From: Pseudomonadota bacterium
Lineage (GTDB): Bacteria; Desulfobacterota; Desulfobacteria; Desulfobacterales; RPRI01
Direction of reading: 5' to 3'
Assembly: GCA_043825875.1 (NCBI GenBank)
Contig: JBDRRF010000103.1
Span: 64,001 to 128,000, forward strand
Length of the DNA: 64,000 nt
In this document: one piece after another, positions 30,191-39,204 of the stretch
Position numbering within the stretch: the stretch's first letter is position 1
Layout of the letters: each line of letters begins with the position of its first letter
The notes under the pieces: model-generated
Told to the model about the DNA's origin: nothing
The model's input: the letters and a program-made list of their open reading frames with translations, nothing else
Databases searched by the model: none
Translations under genes and position numbers: made by a program

Positions 30191-31012
30191 ATGAAAATTA
30201 TTGATTTCCATTTTCATCCATTAAGTGCGGTTGTTGATTTTCTGCCCCAGCCTATGGGGCTGTTGAAAAAAAGAAACCCTGCGTGGGTCAAAAGGTTTGC
30301 AAATATTCCCACGGCCCGTGATATATTATCTTTTCTTGATGAAGAAGAAATAGATTACGCAGTAATGCTTGCGGAAAGAATTCCAACAGTAACAGGAATT
30401 ATATCAAATGAATTTGTTGCCTCACTATGCAAAGGCGAGCCCAGACTGATTCCTTTTTGCAGCATAAATCCTGCTTTAGATATTCATATGGATGTTATGC
30501 TGGAAAAACTTGTTAAAGACGGTTTTAAAGGATTAAAACTGTGGCCCAGCTATCAGCACTTCTACCCGAATCAGCAAAACATCTACCCACTTTATGCAGC
30601 TGCCCAGAAATTGGGTATTCCAATACTTTATCATATAGGAACTTCCGTATTTGAGGGAACAAAGCTTAAATATTGTGACCCCATTTACCTTGATGAAGTA
30701 GCAGTAGATTTCCCAAAGCTCAATATTATTATGGCCCATGCCGGAAGGGGGTTTTGGTATGATAAGGCATTTACCCTGGCTTCTTTGCATAAAAACATAT
30801 ATCTTGAAATATCAGGCTTACCTCCGGCCAAACTTCTTGAATACTTTCCCCGGCTTGGAAAAATCGGCTCCAAAATAATTTTCGGATCGGATTATCCTGA
30901 TGTAACATCCATAAAAAAGAATGTGGACTACATAAAGACTCTGCCCCTCGAACCTTCAGTTATTGAAGGAATACTAGGGTTGCACGCCAATAAATTGCTA
31001 AACGTGTTTTGA
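30191..31012 (+). CDS. Amidohydrolase_2 family metallo-dependent hydrolase/decarboxylase
   Basis: IIDFHFH, KGLKL.P, LYHIG, MAHAG, FGSDYP. Confidence 0.88.
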   Translation: MKIIDFHFHPLSAVVDFLPQPMGLLKKRNPAWVKRFANIPTARDILSFLDEEEIDYAVMLAERIPTVTGIISNEFVASLCKGEPRLIPFCSINPALDIHMDVMLEKLVKDGFKGLKLWPSYQHFYPNQQNIYPLYAAAQKLGIPILYHIGTSVFEGTKLKYCDPIYLDEVAVDFPKLNIIMAHAGRGFWYDKAFTLASLHKNIYLEISGLPPAKLLEYFPRLGKIGSKIIFGSDYPDVTSIKKNVDYIKTLPLEPSVIEGILGLHANKLLNVF

Positions 31013-31064: not shown

Positions 31065-33191
31065 TTAAACATTTTCAAGATCGAATCCAATTGACAACCG
31101 GATCTTTTGCCACTCGGAATCCATAAGCAGAAAATATCCGAACAGGCCGTATCGATAGATTTCAGGATCTTTGGCCGGATCATAGGGCTCCGTTATATTT
31201 GTGGCATACATCAATCGGCCAAGAAAAAGCCCATCGGCTATCTGAACCAGCTCATCTATGCAGTAACAATCCGGAATTATCGTTTTTAACATTGGCCAGC
31301 GGTAGTTGAGCTGAAACGTTTCTTTGCCAATGCTTAAAGGATTAAATGAAATGTTTTTTCTTGCAATAAAGAAGAAATTCTTAACATCATAGCCAAATTC
31401 CTGGGCTTCTTCTGTTGTTGCCTTTTCAGTCCATATATCGGCCACATCCATCAGTCGTCCTACAAAACGCTCTTTAAGGGTGCGCAAAGCCTGACCGTTT
31501 GAACCCCATACAGTATTAACCTTTCCGGTTTCATACCCATCGGTGAATTCAATAAGTTTTTCTTTGGATACAGGATCAAATCGTTTACCTGTCCATGTGG
31601 AAAAAGGAGATGCTACGCTTGTGTAAAGCAGATTAATGATGTTTTTCCCGAAGAGGTCGAAAATGCCTGCCGAATGCCAGCTTATAAGCGCACCATAGTA
31701 GAAGCCATCCATAGTATCGGGGGCAATCCCACGGTTAAACAGTTCTGAAAGCTGATCAAAATATGGCGATTTATTTAGCAAATTATCCTTAAGCTCCCTG
31801 GAGTGTGTTTTCAGATAATGAAGCAAAGTGGGATACTTTCCTGCTTTAATAAGTATTTCAGATTTTAATTTATCATTGCATATTGGCAGTGCCGGTTCCT
31901 GAAACGTAAAGTCATTAAATTTATTCTGCTTGAAATTAGCCTCTATTCCGGTTTGTTTCATGCCTGGGGCATCGGGTGGAATATCCAGATATGGAAAAAG
32001 ACGACGTGCCTCGGCATGCCAATTGCTGTCTAAAAGAAGAAAATATCCGAAGTTCTGATAGTTGTAATCTTCGGGGGGCCGCTTTGGATCATAATCTTGT
32101 AACAGTTTACGTGTTGCATAACAGAGTTGTCCTAAAAACAGACCGGGAGAAACCTCTACAAGTTCATCAATAAGCCAACCATTAGGAACCGGATTATTTA
32201 AAGCCTTATAGCGATAGTTTAACTGAAATACGGGACGTACTGACTTGTCAGATACGGAAAAAGCCGGGGTACCGATAAAATAGCCTCCGTTTTTTTCCCA
32301 TCCATATGCCCGTTGTTCACTTTCAGGAGCCGGATGCAGGTTCATCCATGAATTTAACATCTGAAAGGCTATGGGATTTATAATGCGGGTGGAAATTTTA
32401 TTGAAATGATTTATCCCCAAAAGTATAGGTTCATCTGCTTTTGCTTGTTTTCCAATAATTGACTGCATCCTTGATTCTTCAACACGTTCGAGGCTTTTGC
32501 CCACCCAGGGGCTTTCGTTAGACGCTGTGGTGCCCCATATATATCCTAAAACATTTCCAAAATCAGCAACGCTCTCCGGCATTTCACCACAACGTATCCC
32601 AAGCGTGATTCCATAAAAATGCCCCTGCACGATTTCCGGAGTCCGGCCTGCATCAAATAAAGTTGCAAGGCTAGTATAAACAGGATCATTATTGTCTGCG
32701 CTGCGATCAAGAACTCTTTTATATTCGTAAAACAGCTCAAGTATCGAACCATGTTTTTCAAGTTTTTTATTGAATTCATTTAGAATGAAATCTTTAACAT
32801 TACTGTCTGAACGAAAAGTCCATGTTTTTATATCCGGCGTGCCCTTGCATAATGGATCTTCAATCTGATGTTCTATATCGGCTTTAGCCAAAAGCCGACT
32901 TGGTATGTTTACATCAATTAAAAGATCTTTTGTGACATCATAGATAATATGATTACGGGTGCTATTTAAGACATCGCCATTTGCACTCTTAACCTTCAAA
33001 TAGATATCAGGCTTGTCGATTATTTCATTTTTGGCTTCACATTTTATTGCAAATGCACCACCGGCATCAGTTTGGGTAGTACCAAGAAGATCGTCAATAA
33101 ATAAATCGGCATCATATGCTTCTACGGTAAGACCGGCTACGCCTTGTCCGTTTTCTTTACATTTAGCGGTTCCACTGATAGTAAATCCCAT
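31065..33191 (-). CDS. Uncharacterised 708-aa protein: transthyretin-like N-terminal domain plus two tandem homologous domains
   Basis: GLTVEAYDAD..DDLLGT..TD..G.F..KPDIY at the N-terminus; duplicated W.GK / FQLNYR / IDELV...GLFLG / FGYFLL.DS.W motifs. Confidence 0.8.
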   Translation of the reverse strand: MGFTISGTAKCKENGQGVAGLTVEAYDADLFIDDLLGTTQTDAGGAFAIKCEAKNEIIDKPDIYLKVKSANGDVLNSTRNHIIYDVTKDLLIDVNIPSRLLAKADIEHQIEDPLCKGTPDIKTWTFRSDSNVKDFILNEFNKKLEKHGSILELFYEYKRVLDRSADNNDPVYTSLATLFDAGRTPEIVQGHFYGITLGIRCGEMPESVADFGNVLGYIWGTTASNESPWVGKSLERVEESRMQSIIGKQAKADEPILLGINHFNKISTRIINPIAFQMLNSWMNLHPAPESEQRAYGWEKNGGYFIGTPAFSVSDKSVRPVFQLNYRYKALNNPVPNGWLIDELVEVSPGLFLGQLCYATRKLLQDYDPKRPPEDYNYQNFGYFLLLDSNWHAEARRLFPYLDIPPDAPGMKQTGIEANFKQNKFNDFTFQEPALPICNDKLKSEILIKAGKYPTLLHYLKTHSRELKDNLLNKSPYFDQLSELFNRGIAPDTMDGFYYGALISWHSAGIFDLFGKNIINLLYTSVASPFSTWTGKRFDPVSKEKLIEFTDGYETGKVNTVWGSNGQALRTLKERFVGRLMDVADIWTEKATTEEAQEFGYDVKNFFFIARKNISFNPLSIGKETFQLNYRWPMLKTIIPDCYCIDELVQIADGLFLGRLMYATNITEPYDPAKDPEIYRYGLFGYFLLMDSEWQKIRLSIGFDLENV

Positions 33192-33194
33192 TAT

Positions 33195-34115
33195 CTACCT
33201 CCTTGTGCGATGTTGGTTCACGATAGTACTAAACATTTGTTCAATATCCCGGTATTCATCTAAAGGCATGGATTGTGCGCAAAGATCATCCGAAGCATCT
33301 TTTCCCAGAGCAGCGGCTTTAAAAAGTGTTCCGGGGTGATATGGGCGAAGGATATAAGATAAATTATCTATAGCACCAATGTATTCGGCTATCGCCTTAA
33401 TATTTTTTGAATCTGCTGTAAATCCGCCTATAACAGGAATTGAACATATAAGTTTGTCGCGTGCCACATCTTTAAGTTTTGAAAAATTTGTAAGAATAAT
33501 ATTATTGTTTTGCCCGGTAAGTCTCTGGTGAATATCCGGAGCAAGTAATTTTATGTCAAAATATATCAGATCGATCATGTCAAGCAATGTACTTTCAAAA
33601 AGATCCCAGTTAAAAAAACCGCAGGTTTGAATTGCTGTATGAATTTTCTCTTTTTTCAGTTTTTGTAAAACCTGGCCAAGGTAACGACAGTCCTGTGTAG
33701 GTTCACCCCCCGAAAAAGTAACGCCTCCTTTTGAATGTTCAAAGAATCGTTTATCTTTAAGCAGTATTTGTACAAGTTCTTCCGGTTCATAATATTGCCC
33801 TTTGATAGTTAGAGCTTTGCCAGGGCAAACGGATGCACACAATCCGCAATTATTGCATGTATCACGGTCAATTTTAACAAAGCCATTTATCATAATAGCA
33901 TTTTCAGGACATACTGATGAGCAGTCACCGCAAAGTATGCAATTTTGCGGCTGATGGTACAGTTCGGGTTCAGAGCTTATGCCTTCAGGATTATGACACC
34001 AGAGACAGCTTAATGGGCAGCCTTTGAAAAATACTGTACTTCTTATTCCTGGCCCGTCATCTAAAGCATACCGATGAATGTCGAATATAAGCGGCCGTTG
34101 TTTATCAAAGCTCAT
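33195..34115 (-). CDS. Glycyl-radical enzyme activating enzyme (radical SAM with ferredoxin insert)
   Basis: DGPGIRSTVFFKGCPLSCLWCHNPE, two CxxCxxCxxxC motifs, GGVTFSGGEP. Confidence 0.95.
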   Translation of the reverse strand: MSFDKQRPLIFDIHRYALDDGPGIRSTVFFKGCPLSCLWCHNPEGISSEPELYHQPQNCILCGDCSSVCPENAIMINGFVKIDRDTCNNCGLCASVCPGKALTIKGQYYEPEELVQILLKDKRFFEHSKGGVTFSGGEPTQDCRYLGQVLQKLKKEKIHTAIQTCGFFNWDLFESTLLDMIDLIYFDIKLLAPDIHQRLTGQNNNIILTNFSKLKDVARDKLICSIPVIGGFTADSKNIKAIAEYIGAIDNLSYILRPYHPGTLFKAAALGKDASDDLCAQSMPLDEYRDIEQMFSTIVNQHRTRR

Positions 34116-34119
34116 TGCA

Positions 34120-34581
34120 TTATAAGCTCGGCATATATTTTAACTGCAAATTTTTGGACATATATCCAAATTTATGAATATAATTCAGGTTACCGTCTAT
34201 AGTAATATCTTGTTTCAATATTGAACCAAGAATGTCAGGTTTGGGGCTTAGCAGAAAATCCATAAGCGCTTTACCATCGCGAAAAGTCACAGTAATATTA
34301 GTATCGCCTATTTCTTTTTTGGCAACCTTCATTTTATTATCTTTAAATATTGCAGCTACAGTGATTGTTTTATCCTTGCTGCAAAACAGATAACGTGCGT
34401 CAAAATTTTTGATGTTTCTTCTAAAATCCTTATCCAGACAAAGCACAAGACTCATTAGATTTAAAAGTACATCCAAAAAACCTTCAGCCTTTTCGGATTG
34501 TAAGGTTTGCAAAAACTTGTCAGCAGCGGTTTTAGCACGTTGTGCTCTCATCAAAACAATATTTAACAATTTATCCCACAT
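34120..34581 (-). CDS. Stand-alone SCP2-like (sterol carrier/lipid-binding) domain protein
   Basis: ITVTFRDGKALMDFL...DI...ILKQDITIDGNLNYIHKF resembles the SCP2 C-terminal signature; RBS GGGAG before ATG 34581. Confidence 0.65.
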   Translation of the reverse strand: MWDKLLNIVLMRAQRAKTAADKFLQTLQSEKAEGFLDVLLNLMSLVLCLDKDFRRNIKNFDARYLFCSKDKTITVAAIFKDNKMKVAKKEIGDTNITVTFRDGKALMDFLLSPKPDILGSILKQDITIDGNLNYIHKFGYMSKNLQLKYMPSL

Positions 34582-34603
34582 AATATCGGTCTCCCTGTAA
34601 TAG

Positions 34604-37084
34604 TTATTTTGTTCCCAGCATATCGCTGTGAGCATCCGGAAATATTACGGACTTACCATTTTTAAGATCATATGCAGTACGAGTGATGATCTCTTCTTTC
34701 ATGGCATCGTTAAGATCTTTGAAATAGGCGGAATATCCCGAAACTCTTACCAGTAGTTCGGGATAATCATCCGGGTGCTCTTTAGCATCAAGCAGCATTT
34801 CATAATCCATGATATTGCACTGAATATGCAAGCCTCCGCATTCAAAATAAGTTTCAATTCCTGCACCAAATCTGTCTATATCTTCGGCTCCGTTTATCGC
34901 CGGATATTTTAAGTTGAATGCTTCTCCGCCGGGAATACAAAGGGGATCCAATCCTCCTACCGATTGCAGGCAGGAGGCCAAATCGGTAGCAGCCTGGGAA
35001 ACCGGAGTAATGCCGCTTGCAAAAACTTTATTCGCTTTACGGCCATTGGGCAATGCACCGCAAAGCTTGCCCTGGCCGGCATGGTTTGTCATTGTCCAGA
35101 AGGCCGGCCTGTATTTGCCGCCACGGTAGTTGGTATGTTTTTGGTAAAAATCAAACAACAATTTTACTACCCGCTGGGCATTGGCCTGAGACTCAGGTTC
35201 CATACTGCCGTATTTGGGAGTTTGGTTTACAAGATAAGCATGCAACTTATCATAACCGTTAAAATCTGCTTTCATAGCAGTAATAAGTTCCGAAAAAGTG
35301 CATTTGCGGTCAGTAAAAATAGCCTTTTCAATTGCGCTTATTGAATCAACAGTATCTGCAAACCCTATATGGGTAGCACCGGAAGAATTATAAATTGCGC
35401 CACCGAAAATTAAATCCTTGCCTTTTTCCAGGGGCCCTTCAAAAAAAGCCGAAAGCAAAGGCGATGGCAAAATATCCTGATAAACCTTGCCAAACATTTC
35501 ATTAAGCTCAATAGCTTTTCCGGCAAGCCACTCAAACTGCTTTGAAAAGGCGTTCCAGAAATCTTCGAAATCGTTAAAGGCCGACAGTTCGCCGGTAGCA
35601 GGGCCTATCTGCTCATCACCGGTAACCGGCCTTTTACCATTATATAAGACAAGTTCCAAAACGGAAGCAAGGTTTAGCATGATGGAGCTGGAAGCATCAT
35701 AACTGCGCCCTGCGGAAGCCAGCTCCACACAACCTATAACAGCGTAATCCCTGGCGTGTTCGGTTTTTATTCCCTGGTTTTCAAGAGTTTTAATATCTGC
35801 AATATCGTTATGTACAGCAGGTACAGAGCGGGTATTTGCTATAACTTCTGCTACCCGGTTGCGGTAGTCCTTGCTGTTTATATTCTGGTGATAGCGGGCG
35901 TTTAAACTTGGATCACGGGTTTTAAGCAATTCGGTTACACGCAGCATTAAATAGGTAAGATCGTTTACTGCATCTTTCCCTTCGGTATCAACACCTCCTA
36001 CAGTTACGGCCGGAACCGTTCCGGCACCACCGAATAACTCCTCGGCAGTTTCCGGCACAAGATTTGTGTTGTCATTCAGCTTAAGCCACAAACAGCCTAT
36101 TAGTTCCAAGGCTTCTTCAATATTTAGTTTACCGGCTTTAATATCACGCTCAAAATATGGATAGAGTATCTGATCCAGCCGACCCGGGCTCATAGCCATA
36201 TTTATATTTTCAGCATGAATTGCTACCTGAATTATCCACAAAGAATTAATTGCTTCGCGAAAACTCCTGGCTGGCTTTGCAGGAACCTGGGCGCAAACTT
36301 CTGCCATCTTCTGATAATTTGCTTTGCGCTCTAAATTACTTTCATTTTTAGCAAGCTTTGCTGCTTCCGCACTCAAGTTTGCAGCATATGCAATAATACC
36401 CTGCAAGGCTATTTGAACCGCCCGGTAGAAAAGCATACTTCGCTGTTCTTCTTCATTAAGGTTTCCCTTGGCCTTGATTTCCTGCTCCTTTTTGGCCGCC
36501 TGCTTTATAATATATTCTATTCCATGTTCAAGCGCTGTCACATAATAAGGCACAGTGTGGGAAATAGTTCCCGCCTTGCTTGCTATAAAAAACACTATGC
36601 GCTCGAAAAGCCTCATGCATTCCGGATTATTATAACGCTTCCGCGTAACTTCCAAAGGACTTCTATCCATCCAGTAAGGGTAGATATCAAAGTTAAGTTT
36701 TTCTATTTCCTCAGGGGTCAGTGTTTGAGGATTTTTATCACGTTTGCTGATCACATCAAGTTCCGACCAGATATGAAGACCTGTCCACTCAGGATAAACC
36801 GGTGCACCAAAAGGTTTAGAGCAGGTAGTACCGGCAAGCAGATTGTCGTCAAAAAAAAGCGGCTTTTTTTCCTTTAAAAAATATGCCACCGCTCCGGCAT
36901 AACGTGTTAGCATGGGATCATTGTCTGAGGACATGTCTTTTAAAAAACGGGTAACAAAATCAGCCCGCTCGATGCATACCGCCGGTTTTATCTTAAGCAG
37001 GTTACTGCGCAAACTGTTGAGAAGCGGCATATTGTCTAAAGTATGTTCTTTGAGCCTTATGTCTTGTAATGTTATTTCACTCAT
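34604..37084 (-). CDS. Glycyl radical enzyme (PFL2-like, unknown substrate)
   Basis: GRLDQ.LYPY, Cys loop IGCVEL, PNGR, Gly loop LLVRVSGYSAYF. Confidence 0.93.
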   Translation of the reverse strand: MSEITLQDIRLKEHTLDNMPLLNSLRSNLLKIKPAVCIERADFVTRFLKDMSSDNDPMLTRYAGAVAYFLKEKKPLFFDDNLLAGTTCSKPFGAPVYPEWTGLHIWSELDVISKRDKNPQTLTPEEIEKLNFDIYPYWMDRSPLEVTRKRYNNPECMRLFERIVFFIASKAGTISHTVPYYVTALEHGIEYIIKQAAKKEQEIKAKGNLNEEEQRSMLFYRAVQIALQGIIAYAANLSAEAAKLAKNESNLERKANYQKMAEVCAQVPAKPARSFREAINSLWIIQVAIHAENINMAMSPGRLDQILYPYFERDIKAGKLNIEEALELIGCLWLKLNDNTNLVPETAEELFGGAGTVPAVTVGGVDTEGKDAVNDLTYLMLRVTELLKTRDPSLNARYHQNINSKDYRNRVAEVIANTRSVPAVHNDIADIKTLENQGIKTEHARDYAVIGCVELASAGRSYDASSSIMLNLASVLELVLYNGKRPVTGDEQIGPATGELSAFNDFEDFWNAFSKQFEWLAGKAIELNEMFGKVYQDILPSPLLSAFFEGPLEKGKDLIFGGAIYNSSGATHIGFADTVDSISAIEKAIFTDRKCTFSELITAMKADFNGYDKLHAYLVNQTPKYGSMEPESQANAQRVVKLLFDFYQKHTNYRGGKYRPAFWTMTNHAGQGKLCGALPNGRKANKVFASGITPVSQAATDLASCLQSVGGLDPLCIPGGEAFNLKYPAINGAEDIDRFGAGIETYFECGGLHIQCNIMDYEMLLDAKEHPDDYPELLVRVSGYSAYFKDLNDAMKEEIITRTAYDLKNGKSVIFPDAHSDMLGTK

Positions 37085-37267
37085 GGATAGTCTCCTTTAT
37101 TTATGACATATGTCCTGACTTGAATGGGTACCAATAGCAGAATAAATTTGTCTTTAAGAATATATCATTAAATTATGGTTTCCTACGGGGTCGAATTTAG
37201 AGAGTTTTGAATAAATTACATTTATATTATCGGGGTATGTGATCAGAACTTTTTTTTCCGATGGCAA

Positions 37268-37296
37268 ATCTTAGGGGAATCAGCCTTTTATGTCAA
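37268..37296 (-). promoter_or_regulatory. Sigma70-type promoter for the GRE operon
   Basis: Minus strand TTGACA-17 bp-TAAGAT, about 180 bp upstream of the GRE ATG. Confidence 0.6.
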
Positions 37297-37394: not shown

Positions 37395-39023
37395 TTATGA
37401 TTTATCATGACATTTGGAACAAGATGTGGGCCCGGTTTTTTCTCCTGTCTTTTTCATTTCCCGGTGGCATTTTATACAATAATCCATTGCCTGTTTGGTT
37501 TGAAGTTTTCCATTTGACTTCATCTCAAAGATAGCGCCAATTTTTTTTGGAAACATATCGTGACAAGTCATACAATCTTTCACCGCTTTCTCATGTTTTT
37601 CATGGGGAAAGTCAATACTTCCCCTATCACCTCCTGAAAGCTCAAAAACTTCTTTGACAGCCTTCCCGTTTTCCGGAAATATTGTTTCAATTTGCTCCAT
37701 TGTAATTACAGGTAAAACATTCTTCCCTTTTCCCAGAACCATATCTATTAATTTCTGTGGAGCACTCCTGTAAAGCAATTTTACCGAAACAGATAACTGT
37801 TCGAAGTTTTTCTTTTGAAATACAATCTCTTCCCTGGCAGATTCTTTGGGCGGAATACGTTTATCTTTTAAAATTTCACGGGCTTTTGAGATATTTAAAA
37901 CCGGATTACCTTTTCCGTCTCCAAAAATTGTGTTATAAATTATTGTGCCTTCGGTTATATAGCCATCTTTATCAAGCTTTCCGCTTGAATAAACGATATT
38001 ATTATTTTCATCTTTAATAACAATTTCAAGCCACATCTGCCGCACATCCGTAAGGCCGGTTGGAAGGTAGTGACCGGCTCCTGAATTTGTTATAATTATA
38101 CCAAGCTTTCCTTTTTTTAACTCAAGTGTATCCAGAAGTATATCGGCGCTATTAGTCAACCTTTCTATTGCCATATCCCTTTTTTCCATACTATTAAAAT
38201 TTGCAGGAACAACCGTATTTGCGCCTGTAAAATAATGTGTGAATATATGATCCCTTATTGGTCCATCATCGGCAGCCCTGCCTTTATTAAAAGGTCTTGG
38301 TGTGGATGCTGTTGCCGGAATACCTGGACGTTGATACATATGGCAGCCCTGACAGGTAATTTTTTGTGTTTCATCTTTGTTATTGTATGGTCCGTTTTTC
38401 CATTCGTCATATGTAGTCTCAAGTTTGGTAGCAAATGATACATGAGATACATTATGGCAGGTGCCACATATTTTTGCATCGGTGTGAAATTCGGAAAAAG
38501 CACTTTCATGATAATCGGAATTGGAATCCTTAAATGGTCCGCGTTTTATGCCCGGATCATCTTCGCCATGCCCCGGACTAAGAATTAGCCCGTTGTTATA
38601 AATTTTATCCGCGCCAGTTGCCGAATGGCAATAATCACACTGGATTCCTTTTTTTGCTATTTCAGGAACCTTAGCTCTGTTATCTGAAGTTTTTTCAGGA
38701 TATCCTGTAATATTGCCAACAGGGGTATGACATTTAATACATGATTCGCTTTCGGCAATTTCACCATTATCATTCAAACCTGAAAGCATATACTTTGAAA
38801 CCGCAACATATAAAGGATCTTCATGGGAAAGATGATGCATGGAATTTTGCCACTGGCTATATATTGTGCTATGACAGTCACCACAAACCTCAGGTGAAAC
38901 AAAGCGATCAATTGTAAGCTTTTCGGCATATGAAAAAACCGCAATGAAAAAAATTGCGGCTATCATAATTCCAGCTAAAAGTACCTTCTTGTTTAAAGAA
39001 AATATAGGTTGTTTTGATTTCAT
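37395..39023 (-). CDS. Periplasmic octaheme cytochrome c (five-heme c554-like domain plus three-heme c3/c7-like C-terminal domain)
   Basis: Signal peptide; 8 CxxCH motifs (CGDCH, CIKCH, CDYCH, CGTCH, CQGCH, CMTCH, CIKCH, CSKCH); GAGHYLPTG; FPHEKH; ATG 39023 with AGGAG. Confidence 0.9.
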   Translation of the reverse strand: MKSKQPIFSLNKKVLLAGIMIAAIFFIAVFSYAEKLTIDRFVSPEVCGDCHSTIYSQWQNSMHHLSHEDPLYVAVSKYMLSGLNDNGEIAESESCIKCHTPVGNITGYPEKTSDNRAKVPEIAKKGIQCDYCHSATGADKIYNNGLILSPGHGEDDPGIKRGPFKDSNSDYHESAFSEFHTDAKICGTCHNVSHVSFATKLETTYDEWKNGPYNNKDETQKITCQGCHMYQRPGIPATASTPRPFNKGRAADDGPIRDHIFTHYFTGANTVVPANFNSMEKRDMAIERLTNSADILLDTLELKKGKLGIIITNSGAGHYLPTGLTDVRQMWLEIVIKDENNNIVYSSGKLDKDGYITEGTIIYNTIFGDGKGNPVLNISKAREILKDKRIPPKESAREEIVFQKKNFEQLSVSVKLLYRSAPQKLIDMVLGKGKNVLPVITMEQIETIFPENGKAVKEVFELSGGDRGSIDFPHEKHEKAVKDCMTCHDMFPKKIGAIFEMKSNGKLQTKQAMDYCIKCHREMKKTGEKTGPTSCSKCHDKS

Positions 39024-39043
39024 CTCTGCTCCTGTTAACTGTT

Positions 39044-39204
39044 GAGCCACTTTCAAAACGTTTCAGTTTGGTCAAGCTCAAGGCGGGAGAAAATTTCAAC
39101 CACAGGAATACATTTAGTATTTTGAGGATAGCGCCAAAGCTTCATTTCGTGCGAAAGAGCCCAACACAGAAATCGGCCAAAATGGGGTGTTTTGAAACTG
39201 GCTC
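39044..39204 (+). mobile_element. MITE-like repeat family A, copy 3 (long form)
   Basis: Same TIRs; insert AGCGCCAAAGCTTCATTTCGTGC. Confidence 0.85.

What the first reader, a model, noticed from the sequence alone, without database searches (positions are those of the whole stretch)
31065..37296. Uncharacterised glycyl-radical operon: GRE + SCP2-like carrier + activase + duplicated-domain protein
Seen: four tightly packed minus-strand genes (gaps of 22, 4 and 3 bp) behind a TTGACA-17-TAAGAT promoter. The 826-aa GRE has an IGCVEL Cys loop (single Cys, unlike the Cys-Cys of PFL) and an RVSGY Gly loop. A small SCP2-like gene sits between it and a ferredoxin-insert activase, followed by a 708-aa protein of unknown function. 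No microcompartment shell genes and no small Fe-S subunits like those of Bss/Ass or Hpd are present. Known: GCVE motifs characterise eliminase-type GREs (CutC, HypD, diol dehydratases, IslA), and SCP2 domains bind sterols, fatty acyl chains or isoprenoids. Inference: an anaerobic radical elimination/cleavage acting on a hydrophobic substrate delivered by the SCP2-like protein. I know of no characterised GRE with this partner set.
Basis: partly seen in the sequence, partly recalled or inferred. Interest (0 to 1): 0.85.

Follow-up and report, generated by a model that had tools for sequence, protein, structure and literature searches.

The report
Radical enzyme with lipid-carrier partner
An oxygen-sensitive radical enzyme of unknown substrate always travels with, or is fused to, a small lipid-carrier-shaped protein, and here also with an unknown double-barrel protein found only beside it, which points to an undescribed way for anaerobes to cut a greasy alcohol or ether.

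Summary
The four-gene operon is real, with the stated gaps, motifs and a promoter conserved in two congeners. The glycyl radical enzyme (GRE) scores below every curated family cut-off and lies in an uncharacterised clade near Archaeoglobus PFL2-like proteins. It keeps the eliminase core (Cys452, Glu454, His176, Gly783), has small residues where dehydratases have aromatic ones, and has a clade-invariant Lys170. The 153-aa protein has the SCP2 fold (model; Z 8.6-12). It is present in all 69 of 77 related loci that extend past the GRE, and is fused to the GRE's N- or C-terminus in many relatives, so it is a dedicated subunit of a kind absent from a 2026 GRE review. The 708-aa protein is a transthyretin-like domain plus two Tcur_1030-like repeats; among 401 genomes all 15 with the repeat also carry the SCP2 partner, but it is optional. 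Best reading: radical 1,2-elimination on a lipid-tailed diol or glycerol ether (0.55). The substrate and the complex are not shown. This scan found the GRE-SCP2 pairing before on other DNA; the 708-aa partner had no earlier match.

The parts
37268..37296 (-). sigma-70-type promoter-like site TTGACA-17-TAAGAT
   Evidence: conserved with its AT-rich upstream tract in L001 and L002, not in L003, L005, L077; no transcript data
34604..37084 (-). Glycyl radical enzyme, 826 aa, uncharacterised eliminase-type clade; K170, H176, C452, E454, W663, H668, G783
   Evidence: PF02901 + PF01228; below all NCBIfam cut-offs; residue conservation; tree
34120..34581 (-). SCP2-fold protein, 153 aa, with a long extra N-terminal helix; dedicated GRE partner
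   Evidence: model pLDDT 84; top 10 structural matches are all SCP2-fold, Z 8.6-12.0; synteny and fusions
33195..34115 (-). GRE-activating radical SAM enzyme with ferredoxin insert, 306 aa
31065..33191 (-). 708-aa soluble protein: transthyretin-like N-domain (residues 1-100) plus two homologous Tcur_1030-like alpha/beta repeats (about 120-400 and 420-708)
   Evidence: duplication; model pLDDT 88.9; 5ek8 Z 11.0 and 4mve Z 10.0; co-occurrence

Best explanation
The operon encodes an anaerobic glycyl-radical 1,2-eliminase for a substrate with a small polar, hydroxyl-bearing head and a long hydrophobic tail (a lipid-tailed vicinal diol, glycerol ether or amino alcohol). The activase installs the radical on Gly783 and it passes to Cys452 (established GRE chemistry). 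The thiyl radical takes H from a carbinol carbon, Glu454 deprotonates that hydroxyl, and His176 helps the neighbouring group (water, an alkoxide or an amine) to leave, giving an aldehyde or ketone (inferred from conserved residues). The SCP2 protein is a bound subunit that holds the tail at the substrate channel (partnership shown genomically; lipid binding and docking inferred). Lys170 may bind an anionic group such as a phosphate (speculative). The 708-aa protein is an optional helper, most likely binding or shuttling the lipid substrate or product (weakly inferred). The role is accessory and probably degradative.
For: CXE motif and His at the position of glycerol dehydratase His164 (query residue 174 pairs with chain residue 162 in 1r8w; roles from PMC13450708 sections 5.6-5.7). 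K170, H176, C452, E454, W663, H668 invariant in 73 of 73 and 70 of 70 aligned sequences of the two subgroups. The strand FAGYQPFVN of CutC and AGYPMFQN of HpyG aligns with FGGAGTVPA, i.e. Tyr/Phe/Gln replaced by small residues. SCP2 fold. Partner in 69 of 77 loci, all 8 misses cut by a contig end in or within 170 nt of the GRE. C-terminal fusions in 4 of 77 loci, N-terminal fusions in 13 of 20 fetched regions and 68 of 80 metagenome loci, profile hits in 18 of 150 representatives. Aldehyde:ferredoxin oxidoreductase near the GRE in 13 of 80 sister-group loci; acyl-CoA dehydrogenase (4), AMP-binding ligase (3), MMPL transporter (3) also recur. Metallophosphoesterase, PLD-like and GMC oxidase genes beside some loci. 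Only 3 of 16 congeners carry the GRE.
Against: No substrate, ligand or activity is shown. A fold shows no function, and the SCP2 cavity could not be measured; its invariant residues include several large aromatics that could fill it. The window operon has no dehydrogenase, transporter or beta-oxidation gene, and neighbours beyond the five recurring families are mostly unrelated. The aldehyde-oxidoreductase link comes from the N-fused sister group, whose pocket residues differ and whose 13 GREs are 67-100% identical, so not independent. Four sister-group loci (L114-L116, L120) lie with zinc dehydrogenases and a transketolase, a polyol-type context, with no activase found in the locus. CXE also occurs in GRE decarboxylases. 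No GRE structure was predicted, so pocket size rests on alignments.
Confidence: 0.55

Rival explanations
1. The SCP2 protein is a structural or regulatory subunit (covering a hydrophobic patch, gating the channel or controlling activation, as the small subunits of Bss, Mas and Hpd do), and the GRE eliminates water or another group from a small polar, possibly phosphorylated, substrate.
For: Known small subunits have such roles (PMC13450708 section 4.2). Invariant K170 and H176 suit a charged substrate. Polyol-type neighbours in L114-L116 and L120. The partner's divergence tracks the GRE (Spearman 0.77 over 2278 non-independent pairs, activase 0.82).
Against: SCP2 domains are attached to GREs in more than one lineage, including P0273 and P0303 with Pfam SCP2 above cut-off. 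Small residues replace aromatic ones in the pocket strand. Lipid-metabolism genes recur near the sister group.
Confidence: 0.25
2. The system modifies the cell's own membrane lipids (deoxygenation or head-group remodelling) rather than degrading external ones; the 708-aa protein and DUF6765 handle the lipid at the membrane.
For: No catabolic genes in the window operon. At least 4 of the 39 loci have a 708-aa homologue with a lipoprotein-like signal by a simple pattern. The N-domain resembles that of a cyanobacterial lipoxygenase. DUF6765 lies in 43 of 77 loci.
Against: Patchy presence (3 of 16 congeners, 37 of 401 genomes of the phylum) in both bacteria and Asgard archaea, which have different membrane chemistry (established knowledge); aldehyde oxidoreductase next to sister-group genes.
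Confidence: 0.12
3. It is a fumarate-adding hydrocarbon-activating enzyme, as suggested for Archaeoglobus PflD and for Hermodarchaeota GREs, with SCP2 carrying the alkane.
For: 2f3o is among the two best solved matches. PMC8163825 (passages) states that PflD was suggested to have Ass activity. Related loci come from Desulfobacterium N47 and Smithella genomes.
Against: Scores against Bss and Mas are about half those against eliminases (208 and 230 vs 420 bits). It has the CXE glutamate. No Arg 15 residues after the catalytic Cys (S467; Ser or Ala in 73 of 73), where Bss has its fumarate-binding Arg508 (number recalled). No Fe-S small subunits.
Confidence: 0.04

Closest known systems
PFL2/PflD (AF1449) of Archaeoglobus fulgidus, PDB 2F3O
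   Same: Joint best solved match (419.5 bits); shares GISH, EN, GCVE and a small-residue pocket strand; a look-alike (P0258, 34.9% identical to the window GRE) falls in the same 78-sequence clade.
   Different: Function unknown (PMC13450708). It has Glu where this clade has K170, Gln/Ala/Asp where this has Met296/Ala297/Ser, and no SCP2 domain in the solved chain; its gene neighbourhood was not examined.
B12-independent glycerol and 1,2-propanediol dehydratases (1R8W, 5I2A)
   Same: CXE loop, His176 at the His164 position, W663 at the Tyr640 position; ferredoxin-insert activase.
   Different: About 360-396 bits only; small polar substrates; no SCP2 partner reported; other glycerol-binding residues (His281, Ser282, Tyr339, Asp447; numbers recalled) appear replaced by Met, Ala, Ala and Ser.
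YbiW and PflD anhydrohexitol-phosphate isomerases of E. coli
   Same: GREs that break an ether C-O bond next to a carbinol using the CXE glutamate: the chemical precedent for ether cleavage. His at the H176 position.
   Different: 28.8% and 28.5% identity, outside the clade; sugar-phosphate substrates, PTS and aldolase neighbours; no SCP2.
Multi-subunit GREs (Bss, Mas, Hpd)
   Same: A small dedicated partner encoded beside the catalytic subunit.
   Different: Their small subunits are HiPIP-like or rubredoxin-like iron proteins; this one is an SCP2 fold without conserved Cys.
SCP2 domains on enzymes of hydrophobic substrates (alkylsulfatase YjcS 4PDX, UbiJ 6H6N)
   Same: Same fold, Z 12.0 and 11.3; partner of a catalytic unit.
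   Different: 10-16% identity; extra N-terminal helix; attached to a radical enzyme; ligand binding untested.
Tcur_1030 of Thermomonospora curvata (4MVE)
   Same: Fold of the 708-aa repeat: Z 10.0, rmsd 3.3, 140 of 148 residues aligned.
   Different: 14% identity; repeats are twice as long and duplicated; Tcur_1030 has no function found in print here.

Membership tests
Glycyl radical enzyme superfamily | PFL-like barrel, Cys loop, C-terminal Gly loop | tested here: met
   PF02901 561 bits and PF01228 65 bits, C452 and G783 invariant
Glycyl radical enzyme superfamily | Cognate radical SAM activase | tested here: met
   TIGR02494 above cut-off; in 61 of 77 loci
Glycyl radical enzyme superfamily | Glycyl radical seen by EPR | not testable with these tools
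   needs anaerobic reconstitution
GRE 1,2-eliminases/isomerases | [quoted passage not shown] | tested here: met
   C452-V-E454 in 73 of 73 and C/E in 70 of 70; also present in decarboxylases, so not exclusive
GRE 1,2-eliminases/isomerases | C-O, C-N or C-S cleavage next to a carbinol | not testable with these tools
   substrate unknown
CutC, HypD, HpsG, HpfG, PflD, IAD, HPAD, PFL (named families) | Score above the curated cut-off | tested here: not met
   451/1050, 449/1100, 445/1000, 412/1000, 351/1109, 318/1100, 245/1150, 136/994 bits; also 557/678 for the PFL2-3 subfamily
CutC, HpsG, YbiW, PflD | Grouping with members in a tree | tested here: not met
   All four references lie outside the 78-sequence clade (support 0.999). 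Glycerol dehydratase, HypD and 2F3O sequences themselves were not in the tree.
C-S lyases (IslA, IseG, HpsG) | Two Arg and one Gln that anchor sulfite | tested here: not met
   His176 sits at the HpsG Gln187 position by alignment offset and no Arg is conserved in either segment; feature
Fumarate-adding enzymes (Bss/Ass/Mas) | Fe-S small subunits and fumarate-binding Arg | tested here: not met
   no such genes in the operon; S/A at Cys+15 (Arg508 recalled)
SCP2 sterol-carrier fold | SCP2 topology | tested here: met
   top 10 of 48161 chains all SCP2-fold, Z 8.6-12.0, then 7.8 and below; Atlas 0.95 to a cluster with 25% PF02036
SCP2 sterol-carrier fold | Pfam PF02036 above cut-off | tested here: not met
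   no hit on the window protein; 13 of 70 relatives weak, best E 0.0049
SCP2 sterol-carrier fold | Open hydrophobic cavity that binds lipid | not testable with these tools
   coordinates not available for cavity analysis; needs ligand assay
Tcur_1030-like fold (708-aa repeats) | Structural match over the whole domain | tested here: inconclusive
   Z 10.0-10.1 for residues 122-390 from the whole-protein model; single repeat not folded alone
GXWXG/DUF4334 (considered for the repeats; resemblance recalled) | Pfam match | tested here: not met
   0 of 44 members match at E 0.1; PF14232 does not hit the gene
Phospholipase C/P1 nuclease zinc hydrolases (considered for neighbour DUF6765) | Profile similarity and His/Asp zinc ligands | tested here: inconclusive
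   invariant H6, D35, D36, H58, H135, D139, H143, H191, but hhalign probability 7%, E 0.005, over 71 columns; no PDB hit

The most novel reading that the evidence does not exclude
The system is an anaerobic ether-lipid cleavage machine: a phosphoesterase (DUF6765 or a metallophosphoesterase) frees the glycerol hydroxyl, the 708-aa double-repeat protein shuttles the lipid, the SCP2 subunit holds the alkyl or isoprenyl chain, and the GRE expels the long-chain alcohol by YbiW-like radical C-O scission. This would give a first enzyme for oxygen-free breakdown of alkylglycerol or archaeal ether lipids in sediments, shared by sulfate reducers and Asgard archaea.
Probability: 0.15. Interest if true: 0.92.

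Novelty: new variant of a known kind. Interest (0 to 1): 0.7.

Why it matters
Characterised GRE eliminases act on small polar molecules, and the only small subunits listed in a 2026 review (PMC13450708, section 4.2) are iron proteins. A widespread clade with an obligate SCP2 module would add a new subunit type and extend this radical chemistry to lipids. It gives a defined, expressible target (natural single-chain fusions plus activase) for the open question of how anaerobes break down recalcitrant lipids, and it warns against annotating PFL2-like genes in sediment genomes as alkane-activating enzymes. The 708-aa protein is a family without Pfam match whose distribution depends on this system.

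Tried and rejected
Sequence searches of PDB with the SCP2, 708-aa, DUF6765 and repeat profiles gave nothing useful beyond the lipoxygenase/TTR-52 N-domain; the haemoglobin hit (E 0.004-0.01) covers a short helical stretch and is not supported by the model. ESM Atlas had no usable hit for the 708-aa protein; Foldseek found only its N-domain; plasmids had no match to the repeat. GXWXG/DUF4334 membership was rejected. Phospholipase C-like nature of DUF6765 stayed inconclusive. L037 looked like a fusion by ORF length but has a stop after the GRE and is counted as separate genes. The activase-708-aa fusion P0010 is one cluster with one member and is treated as weak. Literature: 'glycyl radical enzyme'+'SCP2' and 'glycyl radical'+'sterol carrier protein' each returned one unrelated fungal genomics paper; searches with ether lipid, Asgard/lipid and uncharacterised/SSN terms showed no paper on this clade by title or abstract start; Tcur_1030 and DUF6765 returned 0. 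The library lacks most subscription journals. The Archaeoglobus alkane paper was not held.
Full report
Observation. The four minus-strand genes are there with gaps of 22, 4 and 3 bp: GRE 37084-34604, a 153-aa gene 34581-34120, activase 34115-33195 and a 708-aa gene 33191-31065. The promoter-like site at 37296-37268 is one of 27 such sites against 28.1 expected by chance, but it is conserved in the two closest of five aligned relatives. No terminator-like site follows the last gene; a convergent amidohydrolase gene ends 52 bp away. GC content matches the flanks. The genome holds one other GRE, 27% identical, on another contig.

The GRE. It has both GRE domains but scores below every NCBIfam cut-off, at about 450 bits or less against 1000-1150 for CutC, HypD, HpsG, HpfG, PflD, IAD and HPAD. 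The best solved matches are a CutC and Archaeoglobus PFL2 at about 420 bits; Bss and Mas score 208 and 230. In a FastTree tree of 146 GRE cores (full-length members of the 150 representatives, selected loci, E. coli YbiW and PflD), the window enzyme lies in a 50-sequence clade (support 0.996) inside a 78-sequence clade (0.999) that holds a PFL2 look-alike and two GREs with a Pfam SCP2 domain, and excludes YbiW, PflD, a CutC and an HpsG. Glycerol dehydratase, HypD and 2F3O were compared by pairwise alignment only. Several members of the 50-clade have no genomic context, so SCP2 linkage is not shown for all of them.

Active site. C452, E454, H176, K170, W663 and H668 are invariant in 73 of 73 aligned close sequences (window included) and in 70 of 70 sequences of the N-fused sister group. 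H176 aligns with His164 of glycerol dehydratase and W663 with its Tyr640. The 2026 review PMC13450708 (abstract, passages and sections 4.2, 4.3, 5.4, 5.5, 5.6, 5.7 read) gives the CXE glutamate as the base and His164 as the acid for 1,2-elimination, and describes YbiW and PflD breaking an ether C-O bond by the same route. CXE is also found in decarboxylases, so it is not proof. The strand that reads FAGYQPFVN in CutC reads FGGAGTVPA here, which suggests a more open pocket; no GRE model was made, so this rests on alignment. K170 is Glu in PFL2 and its look-alikes; it may bind an anionic group or be structural.

The small protein. Pfam does not name it (13 of 70 relatives weakly), but its model (pLDDT 84) matches only SCP2-fold chains in the top ten of 48161 (Z 8.6-12.0). 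Of 77 related loci 69 carry it by profile search; all 8 misses end inside the GRE or within 170 nt of it, and in 68 of the 69 it is the next of the five marker genes after the GRE. It is fused to the GRE's C-terminus in 4 of 77 loci, to the N-terminus in 13 of 20 regions fetched around profile hits, and is detected in 18 of 150 representatives. In 80 metagenome loci of the sister group 68 are fusions. Cluster names place relatives in Freyarchaeota/Jordarchaeia, Lokiarchaeia and Odinarchaeota. The profile hits 37 of 401 genomes of the phylum and 10 of 301 in the phylum of G401; 3 of 16 congeners have the GRE. Fusion at either end is strong genomic evidence for a dedicated subunit. The review has no occurrence of SCP2 or sterol and lists only iron-containing small subunits.

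The 708-aa protein. It has no transmembrane stretch, an internal duplication (E 3e-34) and 284 homologues, none of the 120 listed with a functional name beyond a carboxypeptidase-like regulatory domain. The model (pLDDT 88.9) shows an N-terminal transthyretin-like domain closest to that of a cyanobacterial lipoxygenase (Z 11.0) and a repeat that matches Tcur_1030 (Z 10.0, 140 of 148 residues). Both repeats keep W-x-G-K, Asn, Tyr-Arg and Asp-Glu, so a binding or catalytic site is possible. It lies in 39 of 77 loci, up- or downstream, in the window's exact order in 5, and in 0 of 80 sister-group loci. In 401 genomes, 21 match its profile; 6 match only the N-domain, and all 15 that match the repeat are among the 37 with the SCP2 partner (9 families; 7 of the 15 are one genus). 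In the second phylum only the seed genome has the repeat (1 of 301). Homologues named from other phyla could not be checked for context. It occurs as split single repeats (L122), as a longer form, and with a lipoprotein-like signal in at least 4 loci. It is therefore dependent on the GRE system but not required by it.

Neighbours. DUF6765 lies in 43 of 77 loci; the window's genome has a copy on another contig, and the family is wider than the GRE (65 of 401). Its invariant His/Asp pattern recalls zinc phosphoesterases, but the profile test was weak. Of 80 neighbour proteins scanned (chosen from 243 candidates and nearby ORFs) most were unrelated or unnamed; metallophosphoesterases (L060, L122, L126, L127), a PLD-like protein (L053) and a GMC oxidase (L126) stand out. 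In the sister group an aldehyde:ferredoxin oxidoreductase recurs in 13 of 80 loci, directly downstream on the same strand in L195, L206, L221 and L226, and TetR regulators (11), acyl-CoA dehydrogenase (4), AMP-binding ligase (3) and MMPL transporters (3) also recur; these loci are related to each other. Against the lipid reading, L114-L116 and L120 lie with zinc dehydrogenases and a transketolase, lack an activase in the locus, and three of the four GREs are split.

Mechanism and verdict. Shown: gene content, fold of the partner, its obligate linkage, clade position and conserved catalytic residues. Inferred: radical 1,2-elimination giving a carbonyl product, lipid binding by the SCP2 subunit, and a helper role for the 708-aa protein. 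I put this at 0.55; a purely structural SCP2 with a small polar substrate at 0.25; remodelling of own lipids at 0.12; fumarate addition, suggested for Archaeoglobus PflD in PMC8163825 (passages), at 0.04. It works like a GRE eliminase but is not a member of any named family. The boldest reading left open, cleavage of glycerol ether lipids without oxygen, has a chemical precedent in YbiW but no direct evidence (0.15). Searches found no paper on this partner set, in a library that lacks most subscription journals; no supplements were read. Earlier notes of this scan describe the GRE-SCP2 pairing on other genomes; they agree with a reading I had already recorded and are not independent support. 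None matched the 708-aa protein by sequence.

Noticed in passing
window 37395-39056 (-): 553-aa exported multiheme cytochrome c (c554-like plus C-terminal c7-like domain) directly upstream on the same strand; not found in any of the 77 related loci.
   Followed up: partly
window 30191-31012 (+): Amidohydrolase_2 gene convergent with the operon; not found in the 77 related loci.
   Followed up: partly
G000:C83:134294-137550: Second GRE with its activase in the same genome, with an atypical GCSQS Cys loop (no CXE); 27% identical to the window GRE.
   Followed up: no
L047:6899-7972 and 42 other loci; G000:C65:51486-52451: DUF6765, a family with invariant His/Asp residues like a zinc phosphoesterase, is as frequent beside this GRE as the 708-aa protein; no paper found.
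   Followed up: partly
L010, L018, L019, L049, L074 (e.g. L049:5751-6308): A 185-200-aa hydrophobic protein without Pfam match, often in two copies, lies near the GRE in 5 loci and between GRE and SCP2 genes in L010.
   Followed up: no
L114-L116, L120: SCP2-GRE fusions in an IclR, zinc dehydrogenase, transketolase cluster with no activase in the locus; 3 of 4 GRE frames are split, which may mean decay or assembly error.
   Followed up: partly
L126:7114-10834 (-): Metallophosphoesterase and a GMC oxidoreductase directly upstream of the GRE, with the 708-aa homologue and an amidase downstream.
   Followed up: partly
L230:8007-15582: SCP2-GRE fusion with activase followed at once by a second GRE (843 aa) with its own activase.
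   Followed up: no
P0010; P0296: An activase fused to the 708-aa protein (1023 aa) and an activase fused to a GRE (1095 aa).
   Followed up: no
P0263, P0272, P0280, P0358: SCP2-clade GREs with degenerate Cys loops (GAAAP, GAMQP, GDGGP, ATHTP): possibly inactive paralogues.
   Followed up: no
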